Positions 20,866 to 35,556 are shown, numbered from the stretch's first letter. The stretch: 64,000 bases of DNA from Eledone cirrhosa (GCA_964016885.1 OZ024745.1:53506001-53570000), one strand, 5' to 3'. Numbers and translations are program-made. Notes: generated from the letters alone by a model not told the origin.

Positions 20866-22150
20866 ACTATGAATAAAGAGTTCAAAACTCAGGCAGTCGT
20901 TTACAATGAAATAGCTCAAAGAAAGAAGTATTTCTGAGCCGTGTAATACAAGATAATATAAATTAATATATATGATAAACACAGATACCAACATATCAGT
21001 GTTTGTATTGTAAATGACTAAGTTAGCTAGATTGAAAAATACTAATTATAATAATACAGTTTGCCTGTCTCGATTTAAAATAATAAATCAATAAAAACAA
21101 ACCATATTGGCAAATAGCCGTGGTACTTAGACAAATTTAAATTTCAAAATCAAACCTGTTCCGTAGATAAGTTTAAACTTTAAAATCCAAATATGTTTCG
21201 ATAAATGAAAAAGTGAAAAAGGTGAAAAATACCACAATCAGATCTCCTCAGTAAGTACCCTGAAAAATTGGTATGTTTCACTTCAAAATATTTAAAAAGA
21301 CTGATTAACGCACATGGTTTTTCAGTTTCTAGCTGCCGCATACTCGTGCTGCTAGAAATAACAGCCGTTAATATGGAGCTAAAGTTAGCTCAACATAAGG
21401 AGCAGTGATACTATGAATAAAGAGTTCAAAACTCAGGCAGTCGTTTACAATGAAATAGCTCAAAGAAAGAAGTATTTTAAATCGAGACAGGCAAACTGTA
21501 TTATTATAATTAGTATTTTTCAATCTAACTTAGTCATTTACAATACAAACACTGATATGTTGGTATCTGTGTTTATCATATATATTAATTTATATTATCT
21601 TGTATTACACGGCTCAGAAATACTTCTTTCTTTGAGCTATTTCATTGTAAACGACTGCCTGAGTTTTGAACTTTTTATTCATAGTATCACTGCGCCTTAT
21701 GTTGAGCTAACTTTAGCCCCATATAAACGGCTGTTATTTCTAGAAGCACGAGTATGCGGCAGCTAGAAACTGAAAAACCATGTGCGTTAATCAGTCTTTT
21801 TAAATATTTTGAAGTGAAACATACCAATTTTTCAGGGTACTTACTGAGGAGATCTGATTGTGGTATTTTTCACCTTTTTCACTTTTTCATTTATCGAAAC
21901 ATATTTGGATTTTAAAGTTTAAACTTATCTACGGAACAGGTTTGATTTTGAAATTTAAATTTGTCTAAGTACCACGGCTATTTGCCAATATGGTTTGTTT
22001 TTATTGATTTATTATTTTAAATCGAGACAGGCAAACTGTATTATTATAATTAGTATTTTTTCAATCTAGCTAACTTAGTCATTTACAATACAAACACTGA
22101 TATGTTGGTATCTGTGTTTATCATATATATTAATTTATATTATCTTGTAT
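20866..22150. repeat. ~544-bp non-coding unit present as 1.1 direct copies followed by ~1.2 inverted copies, between (TA)n tracts
   Basis: ctatgaataaagagttc occurs at 20867 and 21411. 21477-22150 is the reverse complement of a circular permutation of the same unit. Confidence 0.9.
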
Positions 22151-22212
22151 ATATATATATATATATATATATATATATATATATATATATATATATATAT
22201 ATATATATATAG

Positions 22213-23697
22213 TGCCTCTCTTATATTAATTATGCCTGCAACCACCCTAAGCAGACTCTCAACTCCATAGTCTATAGTATCTCACATAGAATCTCGAGAC
22301 TATCCGCCAATGAGTATATCTTCAACCAAGCGGCTGATTACTACAATAGAGCCTTGGTAAGCGCCGGCTTTAACCGAGGAATTTCCTACATCCCTAACGC
22401 TAGCTCTAGAAACCACCCCCCTTATAAAACGAACGTTATAGTAAGCCATACCTATAACCGATCACGCGGCGACCTCGTTGAAGTCGAATATAATAGAATA
22501 GGTAACCGCACTAAAGGTCACGACCCCGGCGACGGTGACCACTGTAGATTACTCGAACTATTCCCCTATTACAAAACCAACAAAGGCGACGGCCTACTAC
22601 CAACGCCTTCCAACCAACATCTTCCTGTACATAAACATGGAAGAGGTAGGAAGAGTGCACCCGAGCATATAGTGAAAGGGGCACCGAACGGGCGACTGCG
22701 CACTAACACACATAAGAGCGGTTACCTAGATGGAACCACCCGTAGCAAACGTACAAGGACACGTAATCGCGACCGTAACGTCCTATGGTCCCCCCCCCCC
22801 TACTCTCGGAGTGTGGCCTTCAACATACCCCGGATGTTCTTCGAAGCCTTAGAGGATAACTTCCCGCCCAACCATAGGTATAGAAAAATTCTTAATAGGA
22901 ACAATATAAAAATATCCTTCTCTACTACTCCTAGCCTAGCAGACATCATAGGAACAACGAACCACAGTAAGATCACCAAGACACAGCACCTCGACTCAGA
23001 CGCACCTACACCTGACAATAACTATATCGGCCTTAACAACTCCCTGGCAGCATCCAATAGTGTTGGCAACGGTATCCGCAGACGCAACCAGCATAACCGC
23101 GAAATGACTGGCGAACATGCAGGACATGACGTGCGGAATAACAATCGCACCACCCCGCGTGCTGTGGGTTGTAATGGTCCTAACGACAGCTGCGGTAGCG
23201 TGGGTAACAACGTAGGCAGCAACAATGATAGCCTTACCGCGGGAAATAGACGGAACCGCGACAGAAATTGCAACTGCCGCGACAGAGGACGCTGCCCCCT
23301 TAGAGGATACTGCTTGACTGATAGGGTTATATATAGATGCACTATAACTAACCACAATAGCGTTAAACATTATATAGGGGCTACCTCCAGCCCGTTCAAA
23401 ATTAGGTTTCGAACACATCTCCACTCTTTCACAAATAAAAAACTAAGACACTCCACTTCGCTCGCGGACTACATCACATCACTAAAGGACTTAAACATCA
23501 GCTTCTCCACGCACTGGGATATTGTCGGCAGGGCTGCACCGTACAACTTCAAGAGGAAATGCGATCTTTGCCTCATGGAACTCTACCACATCATAACTGC
23601 ACCCCATGAGCTCATCAACAGCAGAGCTGAAACAGCGATAAGTTGAACACATCGCTTAAAAATATCCTTCTTCAGATGGGTTAAGGATGAGGAGTGA
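22213..23697 (+). CDS. PLE polyprotein C-terminal part; in-frame TGA at 23644-23646, probable natural stop at 23695-23697
   Basis: ORF-track 22354-23646 extends upstream without a stop. Read-through of the TGA gives ...ETAIS*THRLKISFFRWVKDEE*. Confidence 0.75.
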
Positions 23698-24066
23698 AAC
23701 CGTGCACCGGATTTCCCTGCAACAAGTCTTAACACCCCGGCGGGCAGGCGCTGCAAAAGAACACCCAGGAAACTATCCTTGCATACCAGACCCAGCCTCA
23801 AACGACTCAGACAAACAGATGCAGCAAAAAAAAACTCTCAAATTAAGCGTTGATTACATGCGTATCGACAATGGTAAGGTTGTAACCTCATCTCGTAGCG
23901 GATAAAAAAATTTGTCCGGGAAAGACTGCCCTAACACCGGCCAGAGTTACCTCCCTTGACCTGCTGCAAAATCAAAACAGGCTATTTTTGCGAGCAATGA
24001 ACCTTGATGTGGATTTAACCCCAAAAACTCTTTCCGAGCAATGTAAGGAACACTTTTGATTATTTA

Positions 24067-24106
24067 TGCCTTTGAGAAGCCCAACTGGGCGAAACGTACG
24101 TAGGTG
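24067..24106 (+). ncRNA. Hammerhead-like motif with a non-canonical core
   Basis: tgcc-t-TTGAGAA-gccc/aact/gggc-GAAA-cgtacg(palindrome)-TA-ggtg, in the PLE 3' region. Confidence 0.55.
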
Positions 24107-25368
24107 CTGTTTTAAATAAACATGTTTTAACGGTCTATTCTCCGATTTCTTACTTTCCCACGTGCTTACGCTCTGCTAATTCTCTAGCCCACTAAATATT
24201 AACACTTCGAATATTTAATACTGCCGGCACTAGTATCGAGCACCTTTGGCATACGCTACTTGGCAAATAACTATATGTATCACCTATCATCCCCGTTCTT
24301 TTCTCTCTCTCGATACGTAAATACTGTATATATATATATATATGTGTGTGTCTGTGTGTATATATATATATGTGTATATATATATCAAGTAAGTATGTTT
24401 TGAAACAGTGAGCAGGTTTGAAATTAGAAAATAGAATAGCTTTCACCGTATTCTTGCATAAAGGAATTTTAGCCTGATAATGGGGTTTAGAACCCTCAGA
24501 TAAATTGAAAAAGATGAGTATTGACGTACAAGGAAAGTTTACACTGTTGAATATTTTCCTAAATGTAAACTTTAACGAAGATAATCAATGTCAACATATT
24601 CGTTATGTAAAGCTTATGAAGTACTTATTGTTAGAAATATTTAAATAACGATTATGTATATAGATATATATTAATGAGCCAGTATATTTTAGGTAAATGA
24701 TAACGAAAATAAAAATAAAATAATAAATTGAGGCATGCTAAAGTTAAATATATACCTATATATAACAGAGTGTAAATGCATTAATTATTCATAGTTCAAA
24801 ATAAATAATAATCAAGAAATTTAGAAGTTAACTAAAAATTATGGATAGAAAGATACAGGGAGGTATATGGATATATATTAGGTGTTAGTGATATAGTATA
24901 CTTTAGGTAAATGATAACGGTTATAATTTTATATAATAAAGTTCGACGTATTACAGTTAAATACATATATATATATAAGAAAAACAATAATAAATGCATG
25001 GATAATTCAGAGTTCAAAATAAGGTCTATATTAATTTATAGTTTGCATATTTGCTCTCTATTTGAATCATGGATATAAAAATGCTCTAGGTATATTTAAA
25101 AACATAGAAAATATAATTACATACATATTATAAATAAGAGATCAAAAACGCATGAAAGATTCACAGTTAGAAATAAGTTCCGTTAAAATGTATGGGTTGG
25201 ATATTAAACTAAAATTTAAAACTTAGATAGGAAGATAAAGATAGAGAAATAAAGAAATAATGGTATGGATCAAAGTTAATAATATTATGTTATGTATATC
25301 AATGTTCCGGCGTGTTATTGAACAAGTGTCTTTCATTCGAACGTTATTTCTTCTATACATAGTTATAA

Positions 25369-34306: not shown

Positions 34307-34420
34307 AGGATGATGCATGACATAGCCTGACATAGTAGATGGTTAAGATTCAGTCATGGTAGTACTAGCATGACTGAATCTTAACCATCTACTATGTCAG
34401 GGTATGTCATGCATCATCCT

Positions 34421-34485
34421 ATTTTATCTGATGAGGACGTACTGTTAAACTTAACTCAGTACCTCTGAAATATGTATAATAAAAT
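34421..34485 (+). ncRNA. Type I hammerhead ribozyme, palindrome right arm
   Basis: attttat-CTGATGA-ggac-gtactg..cagtac-ctct-GAAA-tatgta-TA-ataaaat. Confidence 0.8.
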
Positions 34486-34552
34486 ATAATTGATCACAAG
34501 AATATCTATTTTGATAATATTTTGAATTAATATATATATATATATTTATATA

Positions 34553-34837
34553 GGTAAGTTATTCCGGGTTGAATTGGAGGTAACCACAGTAAGTAAGGTA
34601 CTCAATACATAGCAGAGGATACAAGTTTTAATATAGATGAGATTCTACAGGACTAGAACTGTTTCATTCTTGAGAAATCATGAAAAGTTGTTGAAGTGTG
34701 TGTATGGGTGAGTTTGTTGACATGCGTGAATATATGGTGTTGTTGTGCGTATATGAATGTGAGGTGGTTGGTGTATATATGTGTAATTGGATGATTTCTC
34801 AAGAATGAAACAGTTCTAGTCCTGTAGCATCTCATCT
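34553..34837. mobile_element. Family D short PLE-type terminus (minus) plus an inverted partial copy
   Basis: Homologous to 46948-47110, 53120-53292, 63346-63478 and the tip at 7171-7206. Confidence 0.8.
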
Positions 34838-34917
34838 CTCTCACTCTCTCTCTCTCTCTCTCTCTCTATATATATATATATATATATATATATATATATA
34901 TATATATATATATATGT

Positions 34918-35556
34918 GTGTGGAGGAAGTTTGTAAACTCACTTGTAATAATTCTTTACACACATCTCACTGTGTAACACACTTCTCTTTGTGTAATATA
35001 TTTGTATTTGAGCTCAGAAGAAAATTCTCTATTCTTCTTTGAGCTAATATTATTATTATTATTACTGTGAACTGCGGAATACTCTTAATTCCGATCCTCG
35101 TATACTTAACGAGCTCCAAATTGTTGAGCTAATAAATTCGAATGGTTGGGCTGCCCTCTCTAGCATTTTCCCCAATCCACGAGAGCCGTTATTTGATGCA
35201 AATAACACATGATTTCGCCCTACTCTGGGCAGCGTGTATATTAGCTTTCTCTCTATCCATGAGGTTAGATGTGTCGTGAACAGAATCCACATTTGCTGAC
35301 TGAGGAACCTGTGGTCTGTTAAACTGCACATTTCTGTGGTGAAACGAACTAGATTCGTATCAGCAAACTTATAGTTATAAGGTTGGTAATTTAAAACTCT
35401 ACTTCAGAGATTTGATTCTGACTTAGTTTTTTTTTCTATTTAATTGCTAAACCTGTAGATATTATTCTCTATACAGTAACGGTAAAACTCACTTGTAATA
35501 ATTCTTTACACACATCTCACTGTGTAACACACTTCTCTTTGTGTAATATATTTGAA
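34918..35556 (+). mobile_element. 550-bp non-coding unit with ~70-bp terminal direct repeat and a hammerhead, retrozyme-like
   Basis: aaactcacttgtaataattc...gtaatatatttg occurs at 34935 and 35485. (TA)n lies on both flanks. Confidence 0.85.
35292..35367 (+). ncRNA. Type I hammerhead ribozyme with three well-formed stems
   Basis: tttgctga-CTGAGGA-acc...ggt-GAAA-cgaa/ctaga/ttcg-TA-tcagcaaa; 8-bp stem I, GUA cleavage triplet. Confidence 0.92.

What the first reader, a model, noticed from the sequence alone, without database searches (positions are those of the whole stretch)
20866..35556. Three sequence-unrelated permuted units converge on ~545-560 bp
Seen: periods of 544 (20867/21411), ~562 (26751/27314/27875) and 550 (34935/35485). 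All are non-coding, longer than one unit and between (TA)n tracts, with no similarity to each other by eye. Inference: a class of non-autonomous, probably circular RNA parasites with a common size constraint, using the (TA)n-associated PLE machinery next door. This is my best candidate for an undescribed system. With n=3 it could be coincidence.
Basis: inference. Interest (0 to 1): 0.75.

Follow-up and report, generated by a model that had tools for sequence, protein, structure and literature searches.

The report
Hammerhead retrozymes riding Hydra-type Penelope elements
The three repeats are real, protein-free jumping elements that each carry one predicted self-cutting RNA (hammerhead) and likely borrow the enzymes of a Penelope-type retrotransposon, a known kind of element; their shared length of about 550 bases is the middle of a wide 450-700 range, not a tight size rule.

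Summary
The periods are confirmed: A 544, B 561-563, C 550. Each unit carries one type I hammerhead with oversized stems, missed by Rfam but covarying across relatives. Each is a dispersed family (1,127-2,622 first-look candidates). These are animal non-LTR retrozymes (PMC7229834; bioRxiv 2026.07.22.740005).

Three corrections. (1) The ends are not randomly permuted: each family has two fixed 3' ends in (TA)n, one per arm in 32 of 42 head-to-head inserts, as in Penelope-like elements (PLEs). (2) A and C are distant homologues (56%). (3) Size does not converge: 17 hammerhead families span 310-700, the 12 long-stem ones 451-700 (median 542, SD 80), and 428- and 658-period families sit in the same window.

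A, B and C share a hairpin just past the ends with a protein-coding Hydra-type PLE, which points to the borrowed enzyme. Circular RNA is untested. This scan has already noted these families and the hairpin elsewhere in this genome.

The parts
20864..21477 (-). Unit A, inverted arm (1.1 units of 544); 3' end at the second fixed terminus T2 against (TA)n 20791-20866
21122..21259 (-). Type I hammerhead of A (stem I 8 bp, stem II region 45 nt, stem III region 65 nt); predicted cut GUC^ after 21130
   Evidence: covariation
21388..21403 (-). T2 hairpin of A (GCTCC...GTTGAGC), internal copy
21473..22150 (+). Unit A, direct arm (1.25 units); 3' end at the first fixed terminus T1 against (TA)n 22148-22211
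21612..21637 (+). T1 hairpin of A (GCTC...TTGAGC), internal copy; mirror copy at 20914-20939 on the minus strand
21836..21973 (+). Type I hammerhead of A, direct arm; predicted cut after 21965
26746..28026 (-). Unit B, about 2.3 tandem units of 561-563; 3' end at T1 against (TA)n 26681-26750, 5'-truncated end against (TA)n 28027-28108
26824..26905 (-). Type I hammerhead of B (C.A first pair, 6-bp stem II, palindromic stem III); predicted cut GUU^ after 26829
27386..27467 (-). Second hammerhead of B; predicted cut after 27391
27163..27186 (-). T2 hairpin of B (CTCC...GTCGAG, longer loop); second copy at 27724-27747
27281..27304 (-). T1 hairpin of B (GTTC...GAAC variant), read by eye
34935..35557 (+). 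Unit C, 1.13 units of 550; 3' end at T1 against (TA)7 35557-35570; about 20 unrelated bases then (TA)24 at the 5' side
35012..35044 (+). T1 hairpin of C
35113..35129 (+). T2 hairpin of C
35292..35367 (+). Type I hammerhead of C (stem I 8 bp, stem II region 34 nt, stem III 5 bp); predicted cut GUA^ after 35359
26274..26497 (.). Fragment of the 407-428-period hammerhead family, shorter than one unit
28180..28869 (.). Head-to-head insert of the 655-665-period hammerhead family
22213..24268 (+). 5'-truncated PLE with a CxCx5C linker and GIY-YIG-like end (Hydra-type by motif); minimal hammerhead-like motif at 24071
   Evidence: motif reading by eye, no Pfam hit
24336..26106 (-). 5'-truncated Hydra-type PLE (ORF 26088-25417); left boundary approximate
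28948..34060 (.). Large PLE: 1172-aa frame 32991-29473 plus inverted 3' arm; same two-terminus anatomy; minimal hammerhead core at 33799; no shared hairpin
34100..34533 (.). Short head-to-head piece with a hammerhead (34420-34486) of a type found about 500-1,350 nt after PLE endonuclease ORFs elsewhere; likely a PLE 3' end

Best explanation
A, B and C are copies of three protein-free tandem families, each with one predicted hammerhead per unit, that are likely pasted into TA microsatellites by the enzyme of Hydra-type Penelope-like retrotransposons; they are animal non-LTR retrozymes, and about 550 bases is only the middle of a 450-700 range. Shown: dispersal, two fixed 3' ends per family, variable 5' ends, head-to-head arms using one end each, arms longer than one unit, and a hairpin 0-10 nt past the ends that is shared with a coding Hydra-type PLE. 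Inferred steps: a tandem copy is transcribed. The PLE protein docks on the two hairpins, nicks (TA)n on both strands and starts reverse transcription internally at T1 on one strand and T2 on the other. It copies through the hammerhead site for 1-4 units, which needs either a self-cut, ligated RNA circle or an uncut multimer. The two 5'-truncated cDNAs are then joined head to head. I put the circle at about 0.55 against the uncut multimer.
For: Hammerhead: one per unit, found in 0 of 1000 shuffles each (my own scanner, written after seeing the motifs by eye). Both-sided changes in stems: A lineage GGTACTTA/TAAGTACC vs AGTGCTTG/CAAGCACT; B lineage stem II GCAATG/CATTGC vs GTAAGG/CCTTAC vs GGAATG/CATTCC. 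Core-like patterns are enriched genome-wide: 17,741 vs 2,214 control and 28,821 vs 4,142. Dispersal: the best 39-40 scored candidates give 118-143 matches, full-length ones at 89-99% identity. Target: 105 of 122 outward ends abut (TA)n in 77 distinct loci (13 overlapping loci of 90 dropped). Termini lie 183/265 (A), 79/205 (B) and 198/296 (C) nt after the cut site; T1+T2 in 16 of 19, 8 of 11 and 8 of 12 inverted inserts. Two internal RT start sites bounding a 'tail' are shown in vitro for a PLE (PMC11167929); inverted arms, tails and (TA)n targeting by Hydra are described in PMC8557442. Shared signal: CTCC-N-GTYGAG in 9 of 16 monomers, including A, B and C, vs 40 of 3,200 shuffles (pattern drawn from these same sequences); 6,155 vs 512 control genome-wide. 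L249, a 4,603-bp PLE with RWR, CxCx5C and CxxC/CxH motifs, has both hairpins, and its left and right arms end at T1 and T2. One C insert (L073; 1 of 30) is fused head to head with a Hydra-type PLE 3' arm inside one TA-bounded insert. 97 of 121 arms run past a cut site. Circular folds are more stable than shuffles, z -3.4 to -5.8.
Against: There is no RNA evidence and no cleavage test. The minimum-energy circles do not fold the full hammerhead. In vitro, PLE insertion did not need hammerhead cleavage and used uncut RNA (PMC11167929), and 8 of 9 predicted Xenopus retrozymes did not cleave (preprint). 5' ends near the cut site are only weakly enriched (2 of 45, 4 of 30, 7 of 46, against a uniform null that is not realistic). 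The A>G strand bias is weak or absent (17:10, 11:6, 35:44). The hairpin link rests on one coding PLE locus (L249), whose frame is broken; the L073 chimera is a single case and was not confirmed in reads. Loci were chosen as best full-length hits, which favours arms longer than one unit.
Confidence: 0.8

Rival explanations
1. A common size constraint holds independent circular RNA parasites at about 550 nt.
For: A, B and C lie within 20 nt; the long-stem class median is 542; a fourth family is at 529-545 and B relatives at 519-571; B is unrelated to A and C by sequence.
Against: Class SD is 80, range 451-700; all families span 310-700. Homologues differ by 50-90 nt (A 544 vs 484 at 68% identity). 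In 83 random 10-kb stretches 1 of 16 TA-flanked inserts longer than one unit lies in 530-570 (2 if 529 is counted; 2 of the 16, at 863 and 1155, are likely artefacts of a short dispersed repeat). A and C share ancestry, so they are not independent. Published animal retrozyme families span 51-972 bp.
Confidence: 0.1
2. The units are orphan pseudo-LTRs, that is deletion remnants of autonomous PLEs copied from uncut tandem transcripts; the hammerhead is inherited and no circle is involved.
For: They have the same anatomy and hairpins as L249. The preprint finds 24 of 57 Xenopus retrozyme families homologous to known TEs, nearly all PLE ends. Uncut RNA is the dominant PLE substrate in vitro.
Against: No alignable homology to 103 sampled PLE 3' regions. 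The hammerheads have full stems that covary, unlike the minimal PLE type. Units are structured throughout. This rival overlaps the best explanation and differs mainly in the RNA template.
Confidence: 0.3
3. They are local tandem or segmental duplications or assembly artefacts at TA tracts.
For: TA tracts are unstable and hard to assemble (general knowledge).
Against: Families are spread over many contigs with fixed ends and conserved hammerheads; unit C words are held in 3 public runs of one study.
Confidence: 0.01

Closest known systems
Animal non-LTR retrozymes (Cervera and de la Pena 2020, PMC7229834: passages and Discussion read; review PMC7761336: passages; Li, Clavereau and Pollet 2026, bioRxiv 10.64898/2026.07.22.740005: parts 1-3 of 5 read, supplements not seen)
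   Same: Non-coding tandem units with one type I hammerhead each, GC below 45%, dispersed monomers to multimers, PLEs proposed as the motor.
   Different: Units are larger than the 150-450 nt of the 2020 paper but inside the 51-972 bp of the preprint. Stems II and III are oversized and missed by Rfam. Defined T1/T2 ends, (TA)n targeting and a hairpin shared with one PLE clade are not in the passages read; the review says animal retrozymes show no conserved motif that names their motor. Circular RNA is shown there but not here.
Hydra-clade EN+ Penelope-like elements (Craig et al. 2021, PMC8557442: passages and section 11 read)
   Same: (TA)n targeting, hammerheads, partial tandems, inverted 5'-truncated arm, one-sided tail; L249 shares both hairpins.
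   Different: A, B and C have no ORF; their tails are 82-126 nt rather than 30-40; no alignable homology to sampled PLE ends.
Poseidon PLE of Anolis, PAc (Frangieh et al. 2024, PMC11167929: parts 1-2 of 4 read)
   Same: Two internal RT start sites in or near a stem-loop, both DNA strands primed, AT-rich target.
   Different: Different clade, autonomous, AC-rich stem-loop; hammerhead cleavage was dispensable in vitro.
Non-autonomous Chlamys PLEs such as MRC1 (passage in PMC8557442)
   Same: Non-coding, head-to-tail multi-copy PLE dependants.
   Different: Those resemble their partners at the 3' end by sequence; their clade (Naiad/Chlamys) lacks canonical hammerheads.

Membership tests
Animal non-LTR retrozyme | One type I hammerhead motif per repeat unit | tested here: met
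   (0 of 1000 shuffles each); covariation; Rfam models give no hammerhead match
Animal non-LTR retrozyme | Tandem organisation, dispersed copies | tested here: met
   (arms up to 2.9, 4.2 and 2.0 units)
Animal non-LTR retrozyme | No protein-coding region; GC below 45-50% | tested here: met
   longest ATG ORF 27-89 aa; GC 0.30-0.37
Animal non-LTR retrozyme | At least two consecutive complete hammerheads (the preprint's 'active' rule) | tested here: met
   B has two in the window; A arms elsewhere reach 2.9 units; C arms reach only 1.96 units, so weaker for C
Animal non-LTR retrozyme | Self-cleavage of the RNA | not testable with these tools
   needs in vitro transcription
Animal non-LTR retrozyme | Accumulates as unit-length circular RNA | not testable with these tools
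   no RNA holder listed
Animal non-LTR retrozyme | Highly self-paired circular fold | tested here: met
   58-68% paired, z -3.4 to -5.8 for A, B, C against 25 shuffles
PLE-mobilised element | Fixed 3' ends with a one-sided tail, 5' truncation, inverted arm | tested here: met
PLE-mobilised element (Hydra partner) | (TA)n target and cis signal shared with a coding Hydra-type element | tested here: met
   105 of 122 ends; hairpins in L249; one coding locus only; clade by motif, no tree built
pLTR of an autonomous PLE | Unit is continuous with, or homologous to, the 3' end of an RT-endonuclease ORF | tested here: not met
   103 redundant PLE 3' regions from three query proteins give only AT-rich noise; a small sample of 60,631 candidates
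Size-constrained class near 550 nt | Narrow period peak across independent families | tested here: not met
RNA-intermediate signature | Sense-strand A>G excess; 5' ends piling at the cut site | tested here: inconclusive

The most novel reading that the evidence does not exclude
The long-stem families are a radiation of viroid-like RNA circles that share no sequence with their helper except a two-hairpin docking code. A Hydra-PLE dimer primes both target strands from one circle, at T1 and T2, and rolls round it. The need to hold an oversized hammerhead plus both hairpins keeps the circles in a loose 450-700 window. This would be a direct cis link between animal retrozymes and a named motor, and a readable model for how PLEs make head-to-head insertions.
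Probability: 0.3. Interest if true: 0.65.

Novelty: new variant of a known kind. Interest (0 to 1): 0.38.

Why it matters
The papers read propose PLEs as the motor of animal retrozymes but name no cis signal or clade. A short hairpin pair shared with a Hydra-type PLE, together with two fixed start sites, makes that testable with a purified protein and a 550-nt RNA. The oversized hammerheads also show that Rfam scans miss these motifs, of which pattern counts suggest tens of thousands in this genome. The size-convergence idea itself does not hold and adds little. Searches for a prior description (retrozyme + cephalopod; hammerhead + octopus + tandem repeat; retrozyme + microsatellite + initiation site + Penelope) found only Craig 2021 or general reviews. 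The library lacks most subscription papers, and the preprint's supplements were not seen.

Tried and rejected
Rfam. The whole-window scan showed no hammerhead among the 150 of 256 rows listed, and unit-level scans showed none. The Hammerhead_1 genome search gave 18 matches from 74 scored. A gathering-score scan of 10 loci hit only L092.

Proteins. Pfam named none of the four PLE-like frames, so their labels come from motifs read by eye against PMC8557442; the GIY-YIG and RT motif names are recalled.

RNA. No RNA holder listed. Laying the three contig sets on L073 neither confirmed nor excluded its junction.

Similarity searches. BLAST hits of A and F539 to PLE 3' regions (E about 1e-4 to 1e-5) were rejected as AT-rich noise. 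Shared 9-mers across families were only AT-rich words.

Copy-weighted count. Of 125 inserts, 95 hit two representatives (651, 1155) that contain an abundant short dispersed repeat and were dropped; 3 of the remaining 30 lie in 530-570. The families 651 and 1155 were dropped from the catalogue for that reason.

Sampling limits. Of the 70 rows without loci, I skipped an 18-bp tandem repeat and repeated, likely LINE-derived rows before fetching. 17 loci of one 466-bp array were left out. Only the first 100 rows of each pattern search were visible, all on contig C1. The 17-family list was hand-picked as TA-flanked units with a hammerhead core; five of them (415, 451, 484, 650 and one 320 member) fail the stricter score, whose own list (15 families, 310-1155, median 536, 4 in 530-570) gives the same picture. 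One search returned no loci, so the elements behind most of its matches were not examined.
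Full report
Observation. Self-BLAST confirms the three offsets: 544 (20867/21411, 67 nt, 100%), 561-563 (26751/27314/27875, 99%) and 550 (34935/35485, 73 nt). None encodes more than 89 aa from an ATG. A is in fact two head-to-head arms between TA tracts, B is a 2.3-mer on the minus strand, and C is a 1.13-mer.

Hammerheads. Each unit holds one complete type I hammerhead, found in 0 of 1000 dinucleotide shuffles of each unit (the scanner is my own and was written after I saw the motifs). Stem II regions are 34-51 nt, and A's stem III region is 65 nt. Related families keep the pairing through changes on both sides of stems I and II. Core-like patterns are 7 to 31 times more common in the genome than their reversed controls (17,741/2,214; 14,392/459; 28,821/4,142).

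Families and ends. The window lies in a 3.0-Gb genome. A, B and C have 2,622, 1,739 and 1,127 first-look candidates, of which the best 39-40 were scored. In 77 distinct loci, 105 of 122 outward (3') ends abut (TA)n. These ends are not random: they fall at two sites per family, 183/265, 79/205 and 198/296 nt after the predicted cut. In 32 of 42 inverted inserts one arm ends at each site. 5' ends are scattered. The large PLE in the window shows the same one-end-each pattern. This is the published PLE tail and inverted-arm anatomy (PMC8557442, passages), and it matches the two internal RT start sites shown in vitro for a PLE (PMC11167929, parts 1-2).

Partner. Following a lead from an earlier scan note (e1-8805697), I looked just past the termini. 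A and C have GCTC...TTGAGC after T1 and GCTCC...GTTGAGC after T2; B has variants. The T2 form occurs in 9 of 16 monomers, all of the long-stem type and none of the four short-stem ones, against 40 of 3,200 shuffles; the pattern was drawn from these same sequences. Genome-wide it occurs 6,155 times against 512. Locus L249 is a 4,603-bp PLE with Hydra motifs as listed in section 11 of PMC8557442. It carries both hairpins, and its two arms end at T1 and T2. One of 30 C loci is fused head to head with a Hydra-type 3' arm; this was not confirmed in reads. The units themselves do not align to any of 103 redundant PLE 3' regions, so they are not shown to be pLTRs. The large neighbouring PLE lacks the hairpins.

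Size. Seventeen TA-flanked hammerhead families have periods 310, 320, 415, 428, 451, 467, 483, 484, 485, 496, 539, 544, 550, 562, 650, 658 and 700; only 1 of the 14 other than A, B and C lies in 530-570. The 12 long-stem families have median 542 and SD 80, and 6 of 220 triples lie within 20 nt. A is homologous to the 484, 496 and 451 families and, at 56% over 449 columns, to C. B is homologous to the 483 and 485 families, and its closer relatives run 519-571. In 830 kb of random stretches, 1 of 16 TA-flanked inserts longer than one unit lies in 530-570. The finding's own span contains members of the 428 and 658 families that show no local period.

Mechanism. Shown: dispersal, targeting, fixed ends, shared hairpins, and arms crossing the cut site (97 of 121, from loci selected for full length). 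Inferred: transcription, docking of a Hydra-type protein on the hairpins, priming of both target strands at T1 and T2, and copying for more than one unit. A circle would explain the last step, as proposed in PMC7229834 (Discussion), and the circular folds are stable (z -3.4 to -5.8). An uncut multimer would explain it too, and was the main substrate in PMC11167929. The editing signature and the pile-up of 5' ends at the cut site are inconclusive. No RNA holder was listed.

Standing. These are non-LTR retrozymes as defined in PMC7229834 and in bioRxiv 10.64898/2026.07.22.740005 (parts 1-3 of 5 read), whose family lengths run 51-972 bp. What the passages read do not contain is the oversized hammerhead, the two-site anatomy, and a cis signal that names a PLE clade. 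This scan's earlier notes from other pieces of the same genome report these points, including a 558-bp unit that is probably family B; they are leads, not support. Verdict: observation largely real, size-constraint inference not supported, element kind known, variant features modestly new. Interest 0.38.

Noticed in passing
L205:2465-3321, L215:2241-3134, L073:2166-3164, L120:3949-4357, L092:1910-2514: TA-flanked tandem families with periods 548, 591-596, 626-644, 341 and 480 in which my scanner finds no standard hammerhead; possibly permuted or hammerhead-less retrozyme-like elements.
   Followed up: partly
G000:C1:5738331-5752439 (L231-L248): A very abundant 466-470-bp family with a short canonical hammerhead forms arrays of about 30 units; its circular fold has z -12.4.
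   Followed up: partly
L073:650-2101: One TA-bounded insert joins unit C head to head with the 3' part of a Hydra-type PLE, a possible template switch.
   Followed up: partly
window 25417-26106 and its genome-wide copies: Most of the 150 best protein matches of this Hydra-type fragment begin at query residue 2, i.e. at the same left boundary next to (TA)n, which suggests a fixed boundary rather than random truncation; the boundary sequence also occurs alone at 28884-28940.
   Followed up: no
window 34100-34533: Short head-to-head element with an internal palindrome (34324-34403) and a hammerhead; at least 40 similar loci.
   Followed up: partly
window 20540-20590: A minimal hammerhead-like motif (CTGATGA...GAAA) upstream of unit A's TA tract, seen by eye.
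   Followed up: no
window 3447-3564, 14408-14797, 25364-25473, 47685-47855, 57737-57930: Abundant short dispersed repeat (tandem period 187 at 14420-14796); one copy interrupts the Hydra-type fragment.
   Followed up: no
window 36019-36953, 41814-42900, 8450-9250: Broken LINE-type RT fragments (Pfam RVT_1, zf-RVT).
   Followed up: no
window 10017-10193, 34554-34681, 46944-47111, 53127-53649, 61007-61230, 63349-63478: Two further families of small TA-bounded fold-back elements, likely PLE ends.
   Followed up: no
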